A DNA stretch of 61,564 nt, the filler included, from Piptocephalis cylindrospora (lineage: Eukaryota), in NCBI GenBank assembly GCA_003614145.1. It is 9 parts of 9 records of this genome, joined end to end, with 100 filler letters (N's around TTAATTAATTAA, not from the genome) between each part and the next. Parts side by side here need not be neighbours in the genome. Positions count along the whole stretch, not along the records: positions 1 to 6,786 come from KZ988254.1; 8 more parts are not named here. One strand, written 5' to 3'. Positions 1 through 61,564 of the stretch are shown here, piece after piece. Below the pieces are notes generated by a model. That model was given only the letters and a program-made list of their open reading frames with translations. It made no database searches and was not told the DNA's origin. A program made the translations under genes and the position numbers. Each line of letters opens with the position of its first letter. The stretch's first letter is position 1.

Positions 1-171
1 GGGCAAAAAAGAGCATGGGGTTGCGAAGAGCACACTTTAAATTACATCCTCAGGAGGAAAACACCTTGCTCGTTGGGAACAGTGTGGATGTTCTATTCTA
101 TCACCTCCACCCTCCTCCCTTTTCTGGCTCGCTTAGTCCTTGCCGTCCCGGAAAGACCCTTGCGTCCAGAT

Positions 172-1542
172 ATGCTGTCCATAGCTAGAGTCCTCCCCAA
201 TTTATGGCGATCTTTCATGCCCAGGCCACTCTCCACCATGACTGGATCCACCGCCTCCGTTCTCCCCATGCTCAAGGCCCGCCTAGACCTATTGGGGACA
301 GAGACCGAGATTCAGGGATTGAACCGGAGACAGCTGCTGCTTCAGACTGCCCCTACACTCTCCTCTTATGACCTTTCCCAGTTACTCCGAAAAGACGCAG
401 ACCCTCTCGACCTGACCGCCGAGGATGTCGGCTCCCTGATCCTTGGTCTATGCCCTGCCCGATCCGTCGAAGCCTTTCGTCTTCTGCAGCCCTATCAGAC
501 CTTCCCAGGACGCCGATCCCGTACACCCTATCATGCCTTGGTGTATGGTCTTGCCAGAACAGGGGAGCTCACCAAGGCTGAGCGCGTCCTCCAAGCCCTT
601 AGTGCGGACCCATACATCACTAAGACTGCGGGGGCTCCCTATGCTGTCTATCTAAAGGAGTTATCACAGATTAAAGGCCCTGAATTTGCCCTGAAATGGT
701 GGATGAGCTGGTGTGCGGCCCACTTAAAGGACAAGTCCACCAATGGAATGATCATTCGCAATACCGTTTTATCCCTTCTTCTCAAGGTGCCCGGGAACCT
801 TGGTAAGAGCGAATGGATACGACATCAGCTTTCAGACTCTGCGAAAAACAGGAATACCTTTGGGATGAACCTGGTTCTAAGGACCGTTGTGAAAGCAAAG
901 AAGGAGTGGGAGGACCGGATTCATGCCGTCCTCGCTTCCAACTCTCATTTGAACTGGGATGCCACTACATATACCATACTGATCGATACGGCCTCTCGCC
1001 ATAAAAGATGGGATTTGGCAGAGGCATGGTACGACAAAGCCTTAGAGGAGGATGGTCTTTGCCCGGACACGGCCCTCTTGACGGTCATAGTAGGGTACCT
1101 TCTCAGCCGTAGGCTGGATAAGAAGGCCACAGAGGCCCAGATAGAGCTGATGCGTATGGCCCAGGTTCCCATCGTCGATGCTGGGGTATGTCGCCTGTGG
1201 ATACGGCATTATGGTGCCAGGAGGCAGCTGTCCGAAGCCAAGCGTATATGGAAAATGGCATGTGAAGCCGGGGTGGTAGATACGAAGCACCAAATGTACG
1301 ATGCCATGCTAAAAGCATTCATTGTCTCGGATAAATATGCATCCTGGCCCTCGTGGTTGAAGGAGCAGCAGGGAGTGCTTGGGGCACAGAGCGCCCTGTC
1401 CCCCTCTTCTTCCCTCTCTCGATCCCTCCTCAGCCTTCCTGAACGCGTTCGTCGAGGCGTGATTCGGCGTCAAGCATCACCAGCTGCTTCTACCCGCTTC
1501 CTTCCTTCTCCATATGCCGTCACATCCACGACCTTTCCCTGA
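172..1542 (+). CDS. Pentatricopeptide-repeat (PPR) protein, probably mitochondrial
   Basis: PPR-like motifs (TPYHALVYGLARTGELTKAERVL; TTYTILIDTASRHKRWDLAEAWYDKALEEDGLCPD; YDAMLKAF). ATG172 gives an R/S/L-rich presequence-like N-terminus (MLSIARVLPNLWRSFMPRPLST). Start codon uncertain. Confidence 0.75.
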   Translation: MLSIARVLPNLWRSFMPRPLSTMTGSTASVLPMLKARLDLLGTETEIQGLNRRQLLLQTAPTLSSYDLSQLLRKDADPLDLTAEDVGSLILGLCPARSVEAFRLLQPYQTFPGRRSRTPYHALVYGLARTGELTKAERVLQALSADPYITKTAGAPYAVYLKELSQIKGPEFALKWWMSWCAAHLKDKSTNGMIIRNTVLSLLLKVPGNLGKSEWIRHQLSDSAKNRNTFGMNLVLRTVVKAKKEWEDRIHAVLASNSHLNWDATTYTILIDTASRHKRWDLAEAWYDKALEEDGLCPDTALLTVIVGYLLSRRLDKKATEAQIELMRMAQVPIVDAGVCRLWIRHYGARRQLSEAKRIWKMACEAGVVDTKHQMYDAMLKAFIVSDKYASWPSWLKEQQGVLGAQSALSPSSSLSRSLLSLPERVRRGVIRRQASPAASTRFLPSPYAVTSTTFP

Positions 1543-3099
1543 ACATTTTTCCCCCATATTTTATCATTAGACTATTGACTTGACTGTATCAACGTAGGGT
1601 GTCCATTCCGCATATCGTGTATCTAATCTTTTGAATGGTCAGGACTGGTCTCTCCAGATGAGTCTAAGGTCGATCGATACTGCTGGACTAGATGGCAACG
1701 GAAGGATGGGGTTGGGCATGGGGCCTTCGCAAAGCAATGTCCAGACATATGGTTTTTAGTCCAGCAAACTACTGTGCACTCGTCTGGCTCTCTTATTATC
1801 CATTAGTCTCCCTGCAACGCCGAGAATTTTCTCTTTCTCCTTCTGTTTAGGATCCCGGGATACAGCAGTATATCCAGAGTATCTGATTATCTCATCTTGT
1901 GGATGCAAATATCTGAGCTCTGAACACGATACTTTCGCTATTTAACTAGGATGAAAAGCGATAGTATGGTTAGTACCTATCGCCCTAGAATAAGGAAGGC
2001 AACGTTGGGAAGGATAAAGGCCAGCGAATACAAGAATGGTTGATTTTATCTGATCTGTATCAGGCTCATGTTTCCCTCTATGGCCATCTAATAGAGAAGT
2101 CCTTTTAGAAAAAGGTGTAAAGGAAATAGACACACGGTTTATCTACCTATTTTGAGCGTCTTCTATAACGTATACCGTTCTGGTGAATGCAGGAGCAAAC
2201 CAATCATTACCCATCCTATCTAGATGGAAAGTAAGGTGAGGTATTACCGGGGAAAGTGCCCCTCTTCAATGTGATTCCCAAAGCGAGAAACGGACTCTAC
2301 AACCCCATCGTCCCTTCATGTCCAGGCTAGACACTGGAGTATCTTTCGTCCATGCCATCATGTACCTTTCTGCACATTTATCCTTTGGCGCTGTGCAAGT
2401 TTATCTACTAATTCACATGCTGTCTCTTTCGCCCTGTTCTCCCTTCATCCTCTGAACAAGCATCTCGCACTTTGTAAGAGATCGTAAGGCTGCACCAATC
2501 ATCTCATACGTTTCCCTAGCCACCTAGCCATCCTCTCCAAGAATACTACGCTCCTCATGCACATGTGAGCCGCTTTCCATTCATCTCTCAAGTATGGGGG
2601 TCAGAGTTATGGACATAATCACCCACCAGTTTCCCAGCCGTGAACGCCAAGGACCTCATTGATCAGGAAGCCTGGGGCTTGTGAGACTATCGCAAACTTT
2701 GACACAATGGCCCAGTAACTGAAACTCCGTATAGAGAACGAGCATCCTATTCTGGAGATCCAATTCCCTGCTCATTCCTGTGGGAGTGTAGTCCCATCAA
2801 ACGAGGCATAGCGGAGTTGGCATTTTCATCCTGTCCTAAGGCCATCCAGGATGGAAGAGGTCATTTAGATACAAGATGGGAAGAAAAGTGCCACAGTCGA
2901 ATCCTTCCAATGCATCTCCTTGCTTGATGGAAGTGGCGGAGTTTTAAACATTGAGCGGACTTCAAACATAAAGAAGTCCGCTGCGGAGATTTATAGGGTC
3001 TGGAGTACCTTGAATACGGAGGGTAATTCTATCACCTCTCTCCAGAACGGTTCCAGCCCTACATAAAGGGTCACGGTGGGTGCTCACGATCCCCATCCA

Positions 3100-3420
3100 C
3101 TCTTAGATTCCTTCTCCTACATTTTCTCCTTCCCACCTCCCCTCTCCTCTCTCCTTTCCTCTTTCCCTTTCTGCTTTTTCCGCAAAGACCTTTCAACAGT
3201 CTCTCCTTTGCCTGGTGCATTCCTCCCTCCTCTCACAAAGATCCCTTCACGGGCACTCCCCACCTTTCCCTCTTCCGCTTCCGCTTCCTCTCCCCCTCCC
3301 TCTTCCGCCTCTCCCCTCCTTTCATCTTTCCCTCCCCATCTCCCCCCTTCCTTTCCCTTTCCTCTCCATCTCCCCTTCCGCTGCCTAGCACAGTCCATCC
3401 CTTTTCTCTCATCAAACTCT
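3100..3420 (+). promoter_or_regulatory. Pyrimidine (CT)-rich promoter/5'UTR tract upstream of the micro-exon gene
   Basis: About 320 nt of strongly C/T-rich sequence directly before ATG3454. CT-rich tracts are common in fungal core promoters and 5'UTRs. Confidence 0.4.
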
Positions 3421-3453
3421 CTTAAAGGACGTCCATCCCCTTCTCGATTGACC

Positions 3454-6400
3454 ATGAAGCTCGCCCGCTGCCTCTTATCAATCCTCCTCTTTTCCTTATG
3501 CATAGATTATATCTCTGCGACACCGCCGAGTGTTCATTCGGGTAAGTGGCCATATGATAAGCGAATTTTACACATGCTTCTGCTCCTCACGATCTGCTTA
3601 CATTATCCTCTTACCCTATTTGACACGTAGTTCCGGGTGGCGGAAAAGGCTTTCATCCAGTTCAAACAGTTAAGAGTGAGTTAGAAAGGATAGGGGGAGG
3701 GGTGGGGAGGTTGGTGTCCATACACATAGTCGGATACACATGAGACTTCGTTTCCTCCATTTACCTTATCATTGTGATGGTAAGGATCATCCACTCACTC
3801 CCATACCACCCTACCCCATAAAACATTCCAAAGCTGGTTGGAATAGAGTGTTTGTAAGTTGTACATTTTGTATCTTTTCTAGTGGTTGTCTGCTTCTTAA
3901 AACTTATCACCATTTTGCCTTGCTCCTTCCCCTCCTATCAGAACAAGCCCGTAAGGACCCCGGATTCTTCAGGTAGGTTCCATGTAATATTTCCTTTCCT
4001 CTAGCTCCTTCTTTACTCGAGCTTACATTTCTTTTACCATCTTTAATCTGCCGTAAAAGTTCCAGTTAATAGCCGAGCAAGTAGTGTTTCAGGTCATTCT
4101 GGTACAATTACAGCACCGGTGGCGCCAAAGGTTCGTTAGCAAGTCGTCTTCTCTTTGTGACATGTCTTTTTATTCCTTGTTATTGAATGTGTGAGGAGAG
4201 GGTAAATAATTATTCATCATGCACTTATCATGACTCATCATCGCCTCCTGAATGAACAGGTATATCTTCTTTGGGCCTATTTCCTCCCTTCTTCTGTGCT
4301 AATCTTGAGGCCCTTTCCCTTTATTTTTTTTACTGACGCACTCCCTTCCTTTCCCCATCATCGAAAAATAGCCCAAGAATCAACGTTTTACTTTCTTCAA
4401 TGTAAGTTTGACTAAGAATTCCTGTACTTTATTCATTGGGGATGACAAACACGTGCTTTCTCCATATCTCTTGCCTTTCTACTGACACATTTACATTTAC
4501 TCTTTCTCATCTTTGTACCAACAGAAGAATAAGAAAGCCCCTGTAGGTTTGACTAGGCGTTTCCGTATTCTGTCTCTTAGGGATTCTAAGCACGCGTTCT
4601 CCATATTCCTTTACCTTTCTACTAACAACACATTTCCGCTCCTCTTCCTTCTTGGATCACCGAATGGCTGGACAGCTCAAGACGGAAGCAGAGGTAAGTT
4701 TGTCTAATTGCTTCCATATTTTATTTCCTGGGGATATGAATTGTATTGGTGCTTTACCTTTCTACTAAACCCGCTCTCGTCACCCCTTCCTTCACTATTG
4801 AATCAATAGCAATTCAAAGATGATTTTAACGCTCGTTCTGACCAGGTAGGTTAGGCTCGTCATTTCTATGTTCTATCCCTCGAGGATTGTGGGCATATAC
4901 TACCTCTTTGCTTTTCTACTGACACTCTCCATCTTTCCTTTTTGGGCCATTAAAATGATAAGGGTTCCGAGACAGCCTCATTGGTGAGTTTGGTAGATCG
5001 TTTTCGTATCCTACCCCTCGGGAAATATGGAGATGCGCTATTTCCTCATCTTCTTGATTTTTCATTGACACACTCTCCTTCCTCTTCCCTCATTTTTCGC
5101 TCAACAGAATAGTAAACACTCCGGATCTTCGCAAGAGGCGGTAAGCTTGGCTAGCCATTTCCATACTTTCTCTCCGACATTTTATTAACATGTTACCATC
5201 CCTCTTTCCTTTTCATTGGACCAATGATGAATGGATACCCAATTTACGATCATAGGTATGTTTGGCTATTTACCTTCATAATACATTTATCAGGGGACAT
5301 GATTGTATACCAGTTTCTATCCTTTTACTGATACTTTCCCGTCATTCCCTTTATTATCATTGACCTAATAGAACCTCCGACAGCAGTTTAATGAAAAGGC
5401 TCAACAGGTAGGTGTGATTAGCCCTTCACATATTCTATCTTCTGGGAAATATGGACATGCATTATCTCTTTACTTTTCTACTGACAAATTCTCGCGCCAC
5501 CTTCTCATTGTTGGGCTAATGGAAGCAGAACAACCCTGCTTCCCGGGGAACAAAGGTAAGATTTTCCGGGCTTTTACATTTCATTGCTTCTGGGGGTTAG
5601 GATAGTGAACAGTGTTCTACCTTTAATGCTGCAAGAATAACTGTTCTCTCTATCCTTTTTGTATTGATTACTTTACTGACGCCTCTGGATCCTCTTCCTT
5701 CATCCTTGGATTAATAGAGGGGAAGAGAAGATGATACTGAATCAGTGGCAACGGTAGGTTCCTATGCTTTCCAGAAAATTTATTTCGGGGATTATGGAGA
5801 TATGTGATGAATTACCTGCGGCTTTAGGACGTTGTTAACGTGCAATCCCCTAATTTATTTTGACCTTGCTTTATTTTCTAACGGATTCTTACCTCATCTT
5901 TAAACTGGTAGGAACAAGCTGATACCACCAACCTCGGACCCAATGTGAGACAATTTGACCTTTTATCTATCCTTTTCTCATTTTGCTGACTCTCTCGGGA
6001 CTTTCTCCATTATTGGACCACTAGAAAAAATCAAAGACCGCTGTAAGTTTCTGTGCCCTTTTCCATTCGGATTACCTTAAAAGCTATGGGGATGAGTGAT
6101 GGTCCACCTATGAGCACGCAGAGTGCTTCTGGTTTATTTTAGTTTCCTTTTAATCGTTTCTTTTACTCACTTCATTATCACCCCATCCCGCGCGATAACG
6201 CTATTCAATACTTTTACGCGTCTGGATGAATGCATTACATGCGATATAAAGAATCTTGCACGCCAACAACAAATGGATAGTGGGCGGCATAGGCAAGAGC
6301 AAGGTGTAAGTGCAAAGTGGGCTATCTTTGGGTGGTAAATGGGCTGTGACTTGCCTTGAGGAAACGTTTATATGAAGAAGTATCCCAGTTTTTCGAAGTT

Positions 6401-6755
6401 ATATGCAATTATCTAATCACTACCCTCTTTCATCCCCCTATTTCTTTATCTCTTTACGTCATTCAAGCGCGATGTAAGTATAGTTTTGATGTCATGCAAT
6501 TTCCCCTTAAGATTGCTTGAGCATTCTCATAACTTGGGATTAAACTAACCTATATTATTCTCATTTTCTTTCTCCTCCTTTCATCATCCCGCCATGCAGT
6601 TGATACGCAAGGTAATTATAATTATAATCTTGATATTGTTCTGAAATCCCCTTTCACAACGTTACTTGAGCGCACTTGACGTGGGATTGGGCCAATCTAT
6701 TCTCCTCTCACGCCTTTCCCTTCACGGTATCGAACACTCTTAGGCGCAAGCTATG
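3454..6755 (+). CDS. Secreted micro-exon gene (3' partial, runs off the contig)
   Basis: Exon 1, 3454-3541, encodes a signal peptide (MKLARCLLSILLFSLCIDYISA-TPP). Tentative exons 3631-3675, 3834-3853, 3942-3972 and 4060-4130 bring the total to 255 nt (phase 0). Phase-0 micro-exons follow at 4372-4401, 4525-4542, 4676-4693, 4810-4845, 4963-4983, 5108-5140, 5372-5407, 5529-5555, 5718-5753, 5912-5944, 6025-6042, 6252-6305, 6468-6473, 6600-6611 and 6744-6755, each flanked by AG and GTRAG/GTAGG/GTAAT. Confidence 0.8.
4260..6043 (+). repeat. Degenerate tandem array of intron+micro-exon units (about 100-200 bp period)
   Basis: Introns share the pattern GTA(A/G)GTTTG..TA...TTCC.TA.T.T.T...GGGA.ATG...TTTTCTACTGACAC...CTCTTCCTT...TTGGA.CAATAG. 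Confidence 0.75.
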
Positions 6756-6786
6756 GTAAGCACTTATCGCGCAGGAGTAGGGTATT

Positions 6787-21577: not shown

Positions 21578-24500
21578 ATGCCGCCTCCAAGGAAGAGGCC
21601 TTTTGTACCCTCAGAAGCGGATGCCTCGGAGGCTCGCTCGATTACTCTTCCTTTGCAACGACAACGATCGCTCGGCACGCAACCTAGGAGGGGTGCCTTG
21701 ATGGCAAGGGTTGGGCAAGCGGAAATGAACCAGGAAAATATCCTATCAAGTTCGGAGAGTTCATCAGGAGAGCAACATGGCTCAAAGGAACAAGGAGATC
21801 GACGGGAGGGACGTCCCTCTACTCAAAGTTAGTATCTGTTCACTCCTCCAACTATTATTATTTTATGATTGGCCCTAATAATTCCTTTTTCCAGAAAAAG
21901 CAACAGCGAGACAAAGTTTAGCATTTCGAGCCTCCATTCTTCCGTCCACTCCGGAGCCCACGAGAGGGGAAAAGAGAAAGGCACCAGGCAGCTCTTCGTT
22001 GATACAAGAAAAGTATCGAATGCAAGAAGATACCTTGGTGCGATGGCTGAACCATGCGCTGCGGAACCCAAAAAATATTTTATTGGATGCTGGGGGCTCC
22101 GTTAACCTTGAATTTACCGAAGGATCCTCTTTGTTAGCAGGATCGGAACTTAAGCATACTGTGCTCTCCTGTGCAGACTTGCTACGAGGGGTTGGGTATC
22201 AAAGGGCGATGGCAGCTATTGAAAAGGTACGGTCTATTGTATTTTTGGATCATCTCTTTGGGTTGATGGGTGATGCTCATTTTATCTTCCTCCGATGACT
22301 AGGTCTATCGAATCTATCAACAAGAGCACCCAAATTGGAGGCCCTGCATCACTAAGGATATATTGGATCGTCTTGTGTTCATCCTTCAATACTACTCTCC
22401 CGAATTTCTTCATGTTGGCGTGATGGTGCTGGTTAAGGGATCAGAGAGGAAGGAGGTGAAAGACTCTGCCAGCCCTTCCACCTGGATATCCCTTGTAGGT
22501 GATTGATGAACCGCTGATGGGTGGATCTAATGTCATGAATCCCTTCTCATTTTCTTTCTCTAGCTCATTGACCCTGAAGGTCTCCTTCTGCAAGATAAGG
22601 CAAGAGACATTGACTATCGGGAAGCAATTATTCAAGTTCTAGGCCTAGTAAAGCTACTGGATCTCTCCATGGAAGCTGGGCTTTTCCCCCCTGGAAGGTC
22701 ACTCATTCAGCCTGTATGACATTCCATTGACGTTATTATTCCTAAATTTCTAATTAACCACCATTTTTGTTCTCTTTTTTCCTGCATCCCTGGAACTACT
22801 AGGAATCTGAGATGACCTCAAGTACTGGAATTCTGCAGGAGATAGTTCCAATACTATTTACCCGAGGATCTCGATGGGCTGGGGTACTCCAGACTCATGG
22901 CTATTCCCTTCACTACACTCAGAGCTCTTTGGATGGAGTATGTCTTTCAGTTGAGGACCTTGGAAAGGATCTACAGGATGGAGTGGGCCTCTTAGCGCTG
23001 ATACGACTTGGCTCACACCAGGCAAAGCTAGAGATTGACCAGGTAAGTAGGCCGTGTATCTTTTCTGAGCTCAATCATAGGGGCGCTTCGAAGACCTAGT
23101 ATCCTTAGTCACTTGATATTGATAATTTCTTTTTCGCTATTTGAATCGCCTGTAGAGAATTCAATACCCAGCAAAGACCCTAAATCAGAAATTACACAAC
23201 GCTAGGCTCTTCTTTTCTACGCTAGCGACTACACCTTTCAGATTAAACCTTCGAGCATCGGGGGTCTCCCCAAAGGATCTGGTGGAAGGAAGGAAGGATC
23301 GGATCATGGTTGTCTTATGGCAAGTCCTACTACAATGGCATCTCCCCACCCTCATTCCCTCTCGAGTATTACTTGGGGAGGTTGCTACCCTGAAAACCCC
23401 AGATATACCTTCTACTGTAGGTCTTTTTGTATATGGAACGTGATTGGAATGCGCTGCTGTATGACTCATCCGTTTCCGAGATCTCTTCCCCTTTCTCCTT
23501 TATAGCAGGATCGTTTACCTCTCTACTTTCGCAACGAGATGATTAGCCTTCTTCTTCGTTGGTGTCAATGTGTAGTAGCGGCCTCTCGTAGTGAGGACGA
23601 GGAGGGACGTAGACCCATTGTCCCCAATTTCACTATGTCTTTTGCGGACGGATCTGTGCTATGTCTCCTGATTGCCCACTATCGCCCTGACCTTATTGAT
23701 GCACGCAGAGTCATCATAGGGGAGGAGGGGGGAAGGAAGCGATCCAAAGTGGAAGTTGAAAGCCGAGAAGGATCAGTCGGACCTGGGGAACCATCTTGGT
23801 TCGTCGATTTGGCCAAGGCTCAAGATAGCTCACCTGTACATGTCGCTTGGCGCAGGAATGTGAATCTCCTTTCCCGAGCCATCCCGCATCTCCCAGGAAT
23901 GCCCATGCTCTGTAAGTTCATTGTCTCTTACACTGAGGGCTGATTATGCTCTTATCGATCATAGGATAGCTCCATTTATGCTTATGTATACTATCTGGCG
24001 CTTTCTCTTAGTGAATGAGGAATTCCACCCAATCCCAGATGATCGATCTATTATCCTTATCGTTTCCCATCTTTCCCGATCCCTTTTAATCATGGAAAAG
24101 AATGGCAATAGGCCCAATTCACCCTTACCTTTGAAGCCTTTGCGTACCGCGCGCAGTCAAGTCAAATTGGCTCAGAAGGCAACCAGGGTGATAGAGAGAG
24201 CCTGGAGGGAGTATCGGGATCGAAAAAAGATCCTAGATCGGATATCTAGGATGGCCCAAATGTTCCGTCGGTTTGATGGAGCAGCTCGTACCATCCAAAG
24301 CCACTGGCGATCCCGAGTTCAAGGTCTTCAACAACAACAAAGATTTCAAGACCTACGTAGGACTGTATCATTGATGCAGGCCGTGTGGAAAAGATCTAGG
24401 GCCTTTAAGAGGCGAGTTGAGGCGGAAAGAGGCGAGCTAAGAGCGCGCCGGGCCCAAAAGGCCAGGCTTATCCTGGTGCAGGCTCAATGTCGAGGCTGGT

Positions 24501-26983
24501 TGGGAAGGCATCGGATAGCTCAGGAGCGAGGTGCTGCCCTGCGCATCCAACGGGCATGGAGAGGATGGCGAGTTCGAAGGGACTTGGCTCGATGGAAGTC
24601 CGCAGCAATTCAAATACAGCGAGTATGGAGGGGATGGAGGGTGCGAAGAGACTTGGAGAAGCAAGAAAATGCTGCCCGACAGATTCAGCGCGTATGGAAG
24701 GGCATGCGGGATAGGCGGGGGTACCGGGCCCGTTTATCTCAGATCATCCGTTGCCAGGCCATTGCACGAGGCTGGGTGGTCCGATATGCCCTAGGTGTGG
24801 CATGGGATGCGGCCGTGCGAATCCAGGGAGCTTGGAGGTGGTATTGTCTAGAAGAGCGATGTAGATACCGACGGTGGGTTAAAGAAGAGAAGGCTGCCAC
24901 TATCATTCAAGCAACTTACCGTGGACGCATGGTGCGTCTAGCCTACAAGGAACATCTCATGCTCCGGGAAGAAGCTGCTCGCGTTATCCAAGCGGCTTGG
25001 CGGGGATATCAGGTGAGGAGGGAGGGCCGATCTTGGACTTTGGCAGCTATATGCATCCAAAGGCATTGGAGAGGCTGGACAGCACGTATAACCTATCTCC
25101 AAACCCGGGAGGCTGTGAGAATTGTGGAGGAGAGGTGGATGGCCAAATGTGAGGGAGAGGCCCTGAGATACTCCTTGTATCAGCTTAACTCTGCCGCCTT
25201 GAAAATACAGCGCCAGTGGAGGGCTAGACAGGTGGGTCGGTGGGTAAGAACGGGGTACCAGGGATTACTGGAGTCCACCGTCAAGATCCAGGCGGCCTTT
25301 AGGGGGTGGGCAGCACGAAAGGCCTATTGGGAGATGCATGATGCAACCCTGATCCTGCAACGGCAATGGCGAGCCCGAGCCGAGGGAATATGGGTGCGTG
25401 AGGCTTATCAGGAGCTGAGGGAGGCCACGATCCTATTACAGGCTTATACCCGTGGATGGATAGTGAGACAAAGGGTCTGGGATGCTCACTTTGCCGCCCA
25501 GGCCATCCAGGCGGCATTTCGGGGCTGGAGGACCCGGAGGTATCTTCAAGAGCTTGAGGGAGCTACTCTTATCCTCCAGCAGCTCTGGAGAGCAAGAGCT
25601 CGAGGGAGGTGGGTTCAGGGGGCGTATGCCGAGCTACGAGGAGCCACTGTATGCATCCAGGCACATGTCCGAGGTTGGAGGGTGAGACGGAGAGTGAAGG
25701 AGGCTCATGATGCGGCGCAGATCATTCAAACAACCTATCGACGCTGGAGAATTCAGCACATGTATCAAGAGCTCCACCAGGCTACCCTGACCCTTCAGAG
25801 GGCGTGGAGAGGAAGAAAGGTGATTCAAGAGCACCTACGGGAATGGAGAGATGTTCAAGTGGCAACAGGAGTGATCCAGCGTTGGTGGAGATCTCGAATG
25901 CTTTGTCGAATCCTGGCGTGGAGGATATCAATACGGAGACAGGTACGGCTCGAAGAAGAAGCATCTGTGAGGATACAGGCCATCTGGAAAGGGTGGAGGC
26001 AACGAAAGCACTATCACAGAATTCGTCGTGCCGCTACAAACATCTCTTTATGGTACCGACATAAGAGAGACCGCAGGAGGTACGACCGACTACGACAGGC
26101 CACCCTCCTCATTCAACGGGCTCGTCGGATCCAACTAGCTGAAAGGAGGAGGGAAAGGGAAAGGGCTGCATGGATCATCCAGAGATGGTGGCGTGTGGCG
26201 CACGGCCAATATGAGGATCGAGTGAAGGAGGAGGAAGCGGTACGAAGAATTCAGGCGGCATGGAAAGGATATCGAGTACGAATGGAGACATCCCGTCGGG
26301 TGGGTGAAGCCCTTGCACGGATCAGGCAGGTGACTGAGGGAGCCAAGGAAGAGATGCGTCTGGGGAACCGAACGTCCACGGCCTTACGGATCCTGCTGGG
26401 AGGATCGAGGATGTCGGATATCCTGGGAGCGTGTGTGCACCTGGAGGTAGTAACGCGGCTCTCCAGGGAGTGCCGATTACAGCTCCTGCATCATCAGGCA
26501 ATTGAGGTATTGTACGAGGTTCTCAGCGGGTGTAATCGTAGTATGCCTCACCAAGCGGTCATGCGGCATGGCCTCGCCTCCCTTTACCATCTGTCCTTGG
26601 ATGATGTGACAGCACCCTATGTACTAGGAAGCCCATCTTCCCATGTCCATTTGGGGATGGAAGGAGGGGGCAAGGTCAAGGGAGTGGATGTGCTCCTAGA
26701 GCTTCTTCAAAGGTATCGGGAAGCCTTGGATGTTTTAGGAAAGATATCATTGATCCTGCATCAACTGGTCGTAACGCGTGGTCTTATCCAGCCACTTCGT
26801 CGGACGCCCAATGCGGTTCGGCGGCTTCGAAGCATCATCCATCTAGTCTCCCGACAAGTGGCCATGGATGAGCGATCTCATCGAGCCCTAACTCAGGTGC
26901 AGGCTCGAGCCCTGCAGGAACGGCGAGTGATCATTGGACACCTCTCTGCCGTGGCTAGTGCAGGGGAGAGGAAGAGGATCTAA
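21578..26983 (+). CDS. ASPM: Abnormal spindle-like (Asp/ASPM) homolog: CH domains, IQ array, C-terminal ARM/HEAT-like region
   Basis: CH motifs DLGKDLQDGVGLLALI and NFTMSFADGSVLCLLIAHYRPDLI; about 28 IQ-like motifs; C-terminal RLGNRTSTALRILL..LEVVTRLSRECR..CNRSMPH. Multi-exon 5' part; start codon tentative. Confidence 0.88.
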
Positions 26984-51100: not shown

Positions 51101-51955
51101 TACTTCTTGAGGTAAGAAGTGAAAAACACTTTATTATCCGGGTTATAATGCAATACCAATTTACTCACTTTATCCGTACTTGCAATAGATCTTAGGGTTT
51201 GTCCTATATAGTTCCCAGCGCAGCATTACCCTCTGGGCAGCGGAGGGTGATAAGGTGCGTTGGGGTTGATACCGAGCTTTATTTGAGGCACCGATCTTGA
51301 TTGTTCCATAAATTGAAGCATTGGAACCACACTACTCTCACTCAACATTTTCCTTTTTCCTTTTCCATATTCAGACCATCGAATGGACAGCACAACTACA
51401 GGCGACAGCAGTCATACAGCATATCCTTTCTTTACTAGCTACGATGGAGGAGGAAGATGCCAGAGCTCCCTTGATCCTCTCTTTCCTTGACGAGTGCTTT
51501 TCCTCCAACCCCACGACCCTGAGGCTGGTCCATTACCAGAGATACTCGGTCCATCTACTCCCCCTGCTCATGGAGCATGTACCAACTTTACGTAAGTCAG
51601 ATTTCCCATTTAACGCTCCATCAGTAGCTTAGTATTATTGACACGCTCGCGGGATAAACAGGAGGGATTTCCGGGTTTATGGATGAGCTGATGCAGCAAC
51701 CAACCTATGCGGCAAAGGGATGGGCCGCCCACGTAGGGGTATCAGTGCTTGAGCACCATCGGTCCTTGGAGGATGTGTAAGTTCAGAGCGGGTTTCAGGT
51801 AAGATGTGATGTTGATTGGGCTCTAAATCCTCCCTCCCCTCCTCATCATTCCTAGTTGTGGATGGGTTAAGAGGTTAAAAGACCTTCTAGACGAGTTAAT
51901 TCAGGCGGACGCCGCCGGGTTGATGGCTCTAAAATGCCGATTCGATGCATTATAA
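48194..51955 (+). CDS. INTS2: Intron-rich helical protein, Integrator complex subunit 2-like (5' end uncertain)
   Basis: C-terminal LSFLDECFSSNPTTLRLVHYQRYSVHLLPLLMEHVPT..FMDELMQQP resembles the INTS2 LVHFQGY..LLPL...IPS..FIPEL..QP region as I recall it. Many short GT-AG introns; stop at 51953-51955. Confidence 0.6.
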
Positions 51956-61261: not shown

Positions 61262-61564
61262 CTAGCAAGCCTCACCAGTACGAAGACAATCGATGGCGTT
61301 GAGGAGTTCACCATTTTTAGTGTCCATGTCAATGGACCAAATCATCCCACCGCCCAATTTCTTCTTTTGGGCAAATTGGGCTTTGATCTTGAGGGATTTG
61401 GGATTGTCGTAGGAAAGAAGAATACCTTTACGCTTGTTGACGGCAAAGGGCGTGGAGGATGATTTATCCCAGGAAATAGTCCAGCCGGGCTTGGGTGCAC
61501 CCTCGATTCCGACATTCTCGACGATCAAACGGTACATCCAGGTTTGATTATAATCGTTTTCGCT
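61262..61564 (-). CDS. GH18 chitinase, C-terminal part (5' partial)
   Basis: WDKSSSTPFAVN..LLSYDNPKSLKIKAQFAQKKKLGGGMIWSIDMD. Confidence 0.88.
   Translation of the reverse strand, partial: SENDYNQTWMYRLIVENVGIEGAPKPGWTISWDKSSSTPFAVNKRKGILLSYDNPKSLKIKAQFAQKKKLGGGMIWSIDMDTKNGELLNAIDCLRTGEAC

What the first reader, a model, noticed from the sequence alone, without database searches (positions are those of the whole stretch)
3454..6755. Hidden micro-exon gene encoding a secreted protein built from at least 15 symmetric phase-0 exons of 6-54 nt
Seen: after a signal-peptide exon, 15 AG..GT-bounded exons of 30, 18, 18, 36, 21, 33, 36, 27, 36, 33, 18, 54, 6, 12 and 12 nt. All are multiples of 3, phase 0 and stop-free, reading PKNQRFTFFN|KNKKAP|LKTEAE|QFKDDFNARSDQ|GSETASL|NSKHSGSSQEA|NLRQQFNEKAQQ|NNPASRGTK|RGREDDTESVAT|EQADTTNLGPN|KKSKTA|NLARQQQMDSGRHRQEQG|RD|LIRK|AQAM. 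The naive chance of this is (1/3)^15, but I chose the boundaries by eye and excluded two decayed units. Known: Schistosoma micro-exon genes combine a signal peptide with symmetric micro-exons that are skipped to vary secreted proteins. Inference: this is a fungal analogue, possibly an effector of a parasitic fungus diversified by exon skipping. I know of no described fungal system like it, and standard gene predictors would likely miss it.
Basis: partly seen in the sequence, partly recalled or inferred. Interest (0 to 1): 0.95.

Follow-up and report, generated by a model that had tools for sequence, protein, structure and literature searches.

The report
Flatworm-style micro-exon gene in a mycoparasite
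A fungus that parasitises other fungi carries a predicted gene in which a signal-peptide-like first exon is followed by at least 15 tiny in-frame exons, many separated by copies of one intron, a layout described from parasitic flatworms; it likely encodes a fast-changing, predicted disordered secreted protein, while variation by exon skipping remains untested.

Summary
Observation confirmed. All 15 exons are AG/GT-bounded, 3n, phase 0 and stop-free. A frame-blind rule of 13 array exons as 3n, against 10 of 30 elsewhere in the window. The organism is Piptocephalis cylindrospora, judged from a neighbouring contig. New here: introns 1-9 are paralogous copies of one module, the exons have diverged much further than length-matched intron pieces (excess identity 0.07-0.08 vs 0.20), one module is dead, and branch points are strong and distal. 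So tandem duplication plus frame selection explains the symmetry, which is not evidence of skipping. No transcript evidence was obtained, the gene runs off its contig, and searches with exon 1 found no protein match. The predicted model meets the published structural definition of flatworm micro-exon genes (MEGs), but skipping, paralogues and effector function are untested. The scan earlier noted symmetric-exon arrays in two other fungi, both Thr-rich proteins, unchecked here. Verdict: probably a real, unannotated, convergent MEG-type gene.

The parts
3454..3541 (+). Exon 1 (coding part): ATG, predicted signal peptide of about 22 aa, ends in phase 1
   Evidence: No other ATG from 2930 onward; hydropathy peak 2.7 (window 9); strong donor at 3542. 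SignalP not run.
3631..3675 (+). Exon 2, 45 nt, phase 1 to 1
   Evidence: Called by the frame-blind rule; AG-free zone of 67 nt upstream
3834..3853 (+). Probable exon, 20 nt, phase 1 to 0
   Evidence: Frame-blind call; branch-like motif 37 nt upstream; needed for 5' models B, B2 and C
3942..3972 (+). Exon, 31 nt, with a second donor at 3951 that would give a 9-nt symmetric form
4060..4130 (+). Probable exon; acceptor uncertain (4060 or 4073), weak donor; ends in phase 0
   Evidence: Both acceptors keep the frame, in models B and A respectively
4196..4201 (+). Possible extra 6-nt phase-0 micro-exon
   Evidence: Frame-blind call; model B2
4372..4401 (+). Micro-exon 1, 30 nt
4525..4542 (+). Micro-exon 2, 18 nt
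4676..4693 (+). Micro-exon 3, 18 nt
4810..4845 (+). Micro-exon 4, 36 nt; detectable paralogue of 5372-5407
   Evidence: 18 of 36 nt identical vs null 9.5
4963..4983 (+). Micro-exon 5, 21 nt
5108..5140 (+). Micro-exon 6, 33 nt
5141..5255 (+). Dead module: shortened intron copy, no acceptor AG at the usual place, ex-exon ends in TAG directly before a donor
   Evidence: Alignment; module profile hit E=0.001; zero-length call
5372..5407 (+). Micro-exon 7, 36 nt
5529..5555 (+). Micro-exon 8, 27 nt (tandem acceptor 3 nt upstream gives 30 nt, same frame)
5718..5753 (+). Micro-exon 9, 36 nt
5912..5944 (+). Micro-exon 10, 33 nt, weakest donor
   Evidence: not called by either frame-blind rule
6025..6042 (+). 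Micro-exon 11, 18 nt
6252..6305 (+). Micro-exon 12, 54 nt, 107-nt AG-free zone upstream
6468..6473 (+). Micro-exon 13, 6 nt
6600..6611 (+). Micro-exon 14, 12 nt
6744..6755 (+). Micro-exon 15, 12 nt, last visible exon
4402..5717 (+). Core of paralogous intron modules (introns 1-9, about 116-162 nt each apart from the dead one)
   Evidence: Repeat families D1-D9, alignment, pairwise Z up to about 11, ungapped identity 0.36-0.69 at +7..+42
6756..6786 (+). Start of the next intron, cut by the contig end; C-terminus and stop codon not visible
   Evidence: N-linker from 6787; a 1607-nt contig of run X2 overlaps only 6725-6786 and runs on beyond

Best explanation
This is likely a real, unannotated gene of the mycoparasite Piptocephalis cylindrospora for a predicted secreted, disordered, basic protein, likely built by repeated tandem duplication of one intron-plus-micro-exon module whose exons then changed faster than the introns and would mostly be spliced in constitutively. 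Shown: the exon layout, the paralogy of introns 1-9, the greater divergence of exons, one dead module, strong distal branch points, and the open frame. Inferred mechanism: a phase-0, 3n module can be copied, resized or inactivated without breaking the frame, so the gene works as an evolvable string of 2-18-residue peptide cassettes. Variation arises mainly at DNA level (module birth, drift or selection, death). Each short intron is probably recognised across the intron, with a branch point 31-83 nt upstream of the acceptor that keeps at least 54 nt between branch point and the next donor. The product likely acts outside the cell at the host contact as a display of short linear motifs; occasional skipping would be harmless but is not required.
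For: Frame-blind 3n excess, 13 of 13 vs 10 of 30; stop-free frame and codon-position bias. Introns 1-9 are alike well beyond the splice signals: 13 of 45 core pairs have Z>3 at +7..+50, and 0 of 45 exon pairs do. Length-matched control: exon excess identity 0.07-0.08 with 4 of 28 pairs at Z>2, introns 0.20-0.21 with 16-20 of 28. One exon pair keeps homology (differences at codon positions 1/2/3 are 8/3/7 of 12) and its upstream introns group together (support 0.80). Dead module at 5141-5255. Near-consensus branch motifs at most exons, branch-to-next-donor distance 54 nt or more; branch-to-acceptor median 40.5 (n=8) vs 20.5 (n=26 motif-called introns elsewhere), p=0.012. FoldIndex -0.21 to -0.28, no Cys, no hydrophobic segment in the mature part, K+R 29-32 vs D+E 18-19 in all four 5' models. 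Skipping is rare in fungi (PMC10282164).
Against: No spliced read or protein confirms any junction. The C-terminus is missing, so an anchor or folded domain cannot be excluded. Faster exon change could instead reflect constrained or homogenised introns, or several indels per exon, which my one-gap control does not model. Introns 10-15 show little or no similarity to the core module, so duplication is shown for only part of the array. The outside branch-point set is unverified, and the three annotated SelO introns give 31, 20 and an ambiguous 60 nt, which narrows the contrast. Long branch-to-acceptor distances also mark alternatively spliced vertebrate micro-exons (PMC12871342), so they do not show constitutive use. 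The link between short exons and longer branch distance is significant only after dropping the 54-nt exon (p=0.04 vs 0.35).
Confidence: 0.45

Rival explanations
1. A functional fungal analogue of flatworm MEGs: micro-exons are skipped combinatorially to release a pool of variant secreted peptides at the host interface.
For: Meets the operational MEG layout (vs PMC7653826). Any subset of the 15 phase-0 exons keeps the frame. Near-identical splice contexts and some weaker signals (four AAG acceptors in the gene, a weak donor at 5945, a tandem acceptor at 5526/5529, an alternative donor at 3951) could allow competition. Exons diverge faster than introns, as MEG mature regions do (PMC4350168). A module was lost without breaking the gene.
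Against: Symmetry is already explained by duplication. Introns are short (80-231 nt), unlike MEG introns of 0.1-5 kb, which favours intron definition. Skipping is 0.5-2.5% of fungal events. The fungal host has no adaptive immunity to evade (general knowledge).
Confidence: 0.3
2. The array is only a flexible spacer or stalk of a larger secreted or wall-anchored protein whose working domain or GPI anchor lies beyond the contig end; the exons drift almost neutrally apart from staying hydrophilic and in frame.
For: The gene is cut at 6786. Second codon positions are A/C-rich and T-poor, as in hydrophilic linkers. Earlier scan notes describe fungal stalks built from symmetric exons (unchecked).
Against: Not Ser/Thr-rich like mucin stalks (S+T 25-35 of 164-195 mature residues). 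Neutral drift would not by itself make exons diverge more than introns.
Confidence: 0.18
3. A decaying repeat or recently dead gene whose splice signals are relics, no longer transcribed or translated.
For: One dead module; no protein match.
Against: 15 exons of 8 different lengths are all 3n and stop-free, with intact signals and codon-position bias, although the introns differ from each other by 30-60%. A dead gene would have gathered frameshifts.
Confidence: 0.07

Closest known systems
Micro-exon genes (MEGs) of Schistosoma and tapeworms
   Same: Signal peptide followed by 10-20 short symmetric exons that make up most of the coding sequence; parasite; missed by gene finders; fast-changing mature region (PMC4350168, PMC7653826, PMC4015677 passages; bioRxiv 2023.06.21.545858 first third).
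   Different: Fungal; no sequence link found; introns 80-231 nt and recognisably copied from one another; skipping and a gene family not shown. PMC4350168 says MEGs appear restricted to platyhelminths.
Fungal micro-exons (Coprinopsis cinerea annotation; Trichoderma Xlr2)
   Same: Fungi splice very short exons: about 9% of C. cinerea genes have one of 15 nt or less (PMC12230235, passages), and Xlr2 has a regulated one (PMC11121469, abstract).
   Different: Those are scattered single micro-exons, mostly not frame-neutral (omitting one creates a premature stop in 835 of 1,165 genes), not a run of 15 symmetric ones in a secreted protein.
Repeat-per-exon secreted Thr-rich proteins noted earlier by this scan (e1-7556029, e1-9997532)
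   Same: Fungal secreted proteins with arrays of symmetric phase-0 exons; gain or loss of exon-plus-intron units.
   Different: By those unchecked notes the exons build Thr-rich stalks or repeats. Here the exons are nearly unalike, polar and basic, while the introns carry the repeat signal.
Kex2-processed repeat proteins (KEPs) of fungi (recalled, no call)
   Same: Signal peptide plus a modular, Lys/Arg-rich disordered chain.
   Different: The modules are not repeats, and only one Lys-Arg site occurs in the array.

Membership tests
Flatworm micro-exon genes (MEG) | At least 7 exons, at least half of them under 70 nt and divisible by 3, with a run of 4 or more (PMC7653826) | tested here: met
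   16 of 19, 16 of 20 or 17 of 21 exons in models A, B and B2; run of at least 15. Predicted model only, and truncated.
Flatworm micro-exon genes (MEG) | Micro-exons form most of the coding sequence (up to 75%, PMC4015677) | tested here: met
   67-71% of the visible CDS; the missing 3' end could change this.
Flatworm micro-exon genes (MEG) | N-terminal signal peptide | tested here: met
   By hydropathy and residue pattern only; no SignalP available.
Flatworm micro-exon genes (MEG) | Long introns (0.1-5 kb, longest centrally) | tested here: not met
   80-231 nt, at or below the low end of the MEG range.
Flatworm micro-exon genes (MEG) | Transcripts with exon-skipping isoforms | not testable with these tools
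   No RNA holder listed.
Flatworm micro-exon genes (MEG) | Multi-gene families | tested here: inconclusive
   No genome held. The module profile finds no copy elsewhere in the 61.6-kb window. No paralogous contig at 80% or more in one partial DNA run.
Flatworm micro-exon genes (MEG) | Sequence homology to described MEG proteins | tested here: inconclusive
   Only exon 1 with intron read-through was searched: no hit. The spliced protein was not searched.
Flatworm micro-exon genes (MEG) | High dN/dS in the mature region between orthologues | not testable with these tools
   No orthologue found; internal proxy only: exons more diverged than introns.
Kex2-processed repeat proteins (definition recalled) | Repeated peptides separated by dibasic cleavage sites | tested here: not met
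   No repeated peptide (0 of 45 exon pairs at Z>3); one Lys-Arg and a few Lys-Lys or Arg-Lys sites.
Ser/Thr-rich fungal adhesins and mucins (definition recalled) | Ser/Thr-dominated repeat stalk | tested here: not met
   S+T about 15-18% of mature residues, no N-glycosylation sequon.
Ser/Thr-rich fungal adhesins and mucins (definition recalled) | C-terminal GPI signal | not testable with these tools
   The C-terminus lies beyond the contig end.

The most novel reading that the evidence does not exclude
A mycoparasitic fungus has independently evolved a true micro-exon gene: a secreted host-contact protein diversified both by rapid exon evolution and by combinatorial exon skipping, caught young enough that its duplicated introns record how such genes are born. 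Zoopagales may hide a family of these that annotation misses.
Probability: 0.3. Interest if true: 0.88.

Novelty: new variant of a known kind. Interest (0 to 1): 0.62.

Why it matters
MEG architecture has been treated as a flatworm invention tied to evading vertebrate immunity. A convergent case in a fungus that parasitises fungi would show that the layout can arise without an adaptive immune system in the host, and in a kingdom where exon skipping is rare. Because introns 1-9 are still alignable, the locus offers a direct record of a module-duplication origin for micro-exon arrays. One long-read RT-PCR can decide whether exon symmetry here serves splicing diversity or is a by-product of duplication. 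It also suggests that secreted host-contact genes of Zoopagales are being missed by annotation.

Tried and rejected
No whole genome is held, so there was no genome-wide paralogue search. Sequencing runs: no RNA holder listed. Three runs guessed to be RNA laid 0 contigs on 1-6786, including the PPR neighbour; with no positive control on these runs this says nothing about expression. Protein searches with exon 1 plus intron read-through: none at E<=10 among 28 candidates of 103-2000 aa, no candidate of 31-102 aa, not found by exact look-up (7 of 7 window-derived sequences absent), no Pfam family, no Atlas hit at 0.9 or above. The profile search of cluster representatives was still queued and gave no result. 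Metagenome scans: none of 134 pattern matches encoded a relative of the PPR neighbour; a module motif gave 1 locus, a chance match in bacterial-type DNA. The gapped exon-versus-intron test was dropped because its shuffled null was 0.61-0.74; one search replaced it. One search crashed and was rerun. Earlier-finding look-ups by genome, by sequence and by organism words were empty. The primary MEG paper (DeMarco 2010) is not held, so MEG features come from secondary papers. Considered and rejected: assembly artefact (the copies are only 36-69% alike and a DNA run matches, though it may be the source), plain tandem repeat (Tandem Repeats Finder reports no such array), KEP precursor, mucin stalk. 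No fold or complex prediction was run.

Full report
Setting. The window is nine unrelated pieces of about 6.7-6.8 kb joined by N-linkers. The finding lies on the first piece (1-6786), downstream of a PPR-repeat gene (1-1542), and runs into the end of the piece. A protein on the second piece is 100% identical over the aligned part to a SelO protein labelled Piptocephalis cylindrospora, Zoopagales. That the first piece is from the same organism is inferred from the shared window and the similar GC of its PPR gene. The species is described as a biotrophic mycoparasite that could not complete its life cycle without a host (PMC6784888, passages). No whole genome is held.

A branch-point/first-AG rule gave 8 of 8 (strict) and 18 of 19 (loose) calls of 3n length. 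An AG-exclusion rule gave 13 of 13 in the array and 10 of 30 elsewhere in the window; simulated regions gave 1.6 calls on average, at most 6. Together the rules recover 14 of the 15 exons. The joined micro-exons have 0 stops in 130 codons against a shuffled mean of 6.4, and a codon-position bias (p=3e-4). The thresholds were chosen after I had seen the region and the modules are not independent, so the p-values are optimistic, but the contrast with the rest of the window is plain. Run X2 matches the DNA without listed differences, though it may be the window's source.

Gene anatomy. An ATG at 3454 opens an 88-nt exon with a signal-peptide-like profile. Three to five further exons connect it to the array; four alternative 5' models all enter the array in phase 0 and give 186-217 residues so far. 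The mature part is predicted disordered (FoldIndex -0.21 to -0.28), has no cysteine, no membrane segment and no N-glycosylation sequon, and is net basic. The last visible donor (6756) opens an intron that the contig end cuts. A contig of X2 runs about 1.5 kb further, but its letters were not shown, so the C-terminus is unknown.

The introns of the array core are copies of one another. Outside the splice signals, at +7..+50, 13 of 45 core intron pairs align at Z>3, and 0 of 45 exon pairs do. With length-matched intron pieces carrying the same length difference, excess identity over shuffles is 0.20-0.21 for introns (16-20 of 28 pairs at Z>2) and 0.07-0.08 for exons (4 of 28). So the exons keep a trace of common origin but have moved much further than the introns. 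One exon pair (4810-4845 and 5372-5407) is still recognisable, 18 of 36 nt, with second codon positions most conserved. One module (5141-5255) is dead: shortened, without its acceptor, ending in TAG before the next donor. Introns 10-15 show little similarity to the core. An earlier gapped version of the rate test had an inflated null and was discarded.

Splicing signals. Branch motifs are near consensus at most exons and lie 31-83 nt from the acceptor; the branch-to-next-donor distance is never under 54 nt. Motif-called introns elsewhere in the window have a median of 20.5 nt against 40.5 nt in the array (p=0.012), but that outside set is unverified and three annotated introns give 31, 20 and an ambiguous 60 nt. 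Longer branch-to-acceptor spacing is reported for vertebrate neural micro-exons and read as room for spliceosome assembly (PMC12871342, abstract and one results section). It fits real micro-exons and does not decide between constant and regulated inclusion.

How it most likely works. A phase-0, 3n exon with its intron is a unit that can be duplicated, resized by multiples of three, or silenced without harming the frame. That, with selection to keep the frame open, accounts for the symmetry, so the symmetry shows a translated gene and not skipping. I commit to a secreted disordered protein assembled from fast-changing peptide cassettes, mostly spliced in constitutively and varied over evolutionary time by module birth, change and death, probably at the host contact (0.45). 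True MEG-like skipping is the main rival (0.3): every subset of exons keeps the frame and some signals are weak, but the introns are short and skipping is reported as 0.5-2.5% of fungal splicing events (PMC10282164, passage). A neutral stalk of a larger protein (0.18) and a dead gene (0.07) follow. No call tested secretion, expression, isoforms or host interaction.

Comparison with what is known. The predicted model meets the operational MEG definition used for tapeworms (PMC7653826, passages; counts) and resembles schistosome MEGs in signal peptide, exon number and share of coding sequence (PMC4350168 and PMC4015677, passages; bioRxiv 2023.06.21.545858, first third). It fails on intron length, and skipping, paralogues and homology are untested or inconclusive. 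So it is built like a MEG and I do not file it as one. Fungal micro-exons are known as scattered single exons (PMC12230235, passages; PMC11121469, abstract). I found no paper on a fungal MEG-type gene: 'Piptocephalis' with 'micro-exon' gave 0 papers; 'micro-exon', 'fungal', 'effector', 'signal peptide' gave 0; the listings showed none. The library lacks most subscription papers, and I read no supplements. Two unchecked notes of this scan describe symmetric-exon arrays in other fungi, in Thr-rich proteins, so the layout may recur in fungi. The divergent exons within paralogous introns are what set this locus apart.

Relatives. Searches used exon 1 with intron read-through, not the spliced protein, and found nothing. 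Since a P. cylindrospora protein from the neighbouring piece is in the same collection, a model containing exon 1 would probably have been found; the gene appears unannotated. Metagenome scans found no relative.

Verdict. A probably real, unannotated gene with MEG-type architecture in a mycoparasitic fungus; a new variant of a known kind. Interest 0.62, about 0.88 if skipping is shown (probability 0.3).

Noticed in passing
window 5250-5261 and 4255-4265: Two AG|GT junctions with long AG-free zones upstream. They could act as zero-length exons (recursive splice sites) that split the two longest intron stretches of the gene.
   Followed up: partly
window 3942-4130: The exon at 3942 has two donors (3951, 3973). 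Using the first and skipping 4060-4130 also keeps the frame, a possible coupled alternative event.
   Followed up: partly
window 6306-6743: The last two complete introns (6474-6599, 6612-6743) resemble each other (Z 6.3) but not the core module, suggesting a second, separate duplication.
   Followed up: no
window 1-61564: The window is nine unrelated pieces of similar length joined by N44-linker-N44 spacers; genes at piece ends are truncated.
   Followed up: yes
window 23864-26983 (+): Long ORF with many IQ calmodulin-binding motifs (Pfam IQ, E=1.6e-45); looks like an ASPM/Abnormal-spindle-type protein (name recalled).
   Followed up: no
window 51312-51632 (+): Weak match to Integrator subunit 2 (INTS2, E=5e-5, below the curated cut-off) in a region of short ORFs that looks intron-rich.
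   Followed up: no
window 61262-61564 (-): C-terminal fragment that looks like a GH18 chitinase (judged by eye), of interest in a mycoparasite.
   Followed up: no
window 3100-3450: Strongly pyrimidine-rich stretch with short tandem repeats upstream of the ATG, and a TATA-like site near 3061.
   Followed up: no
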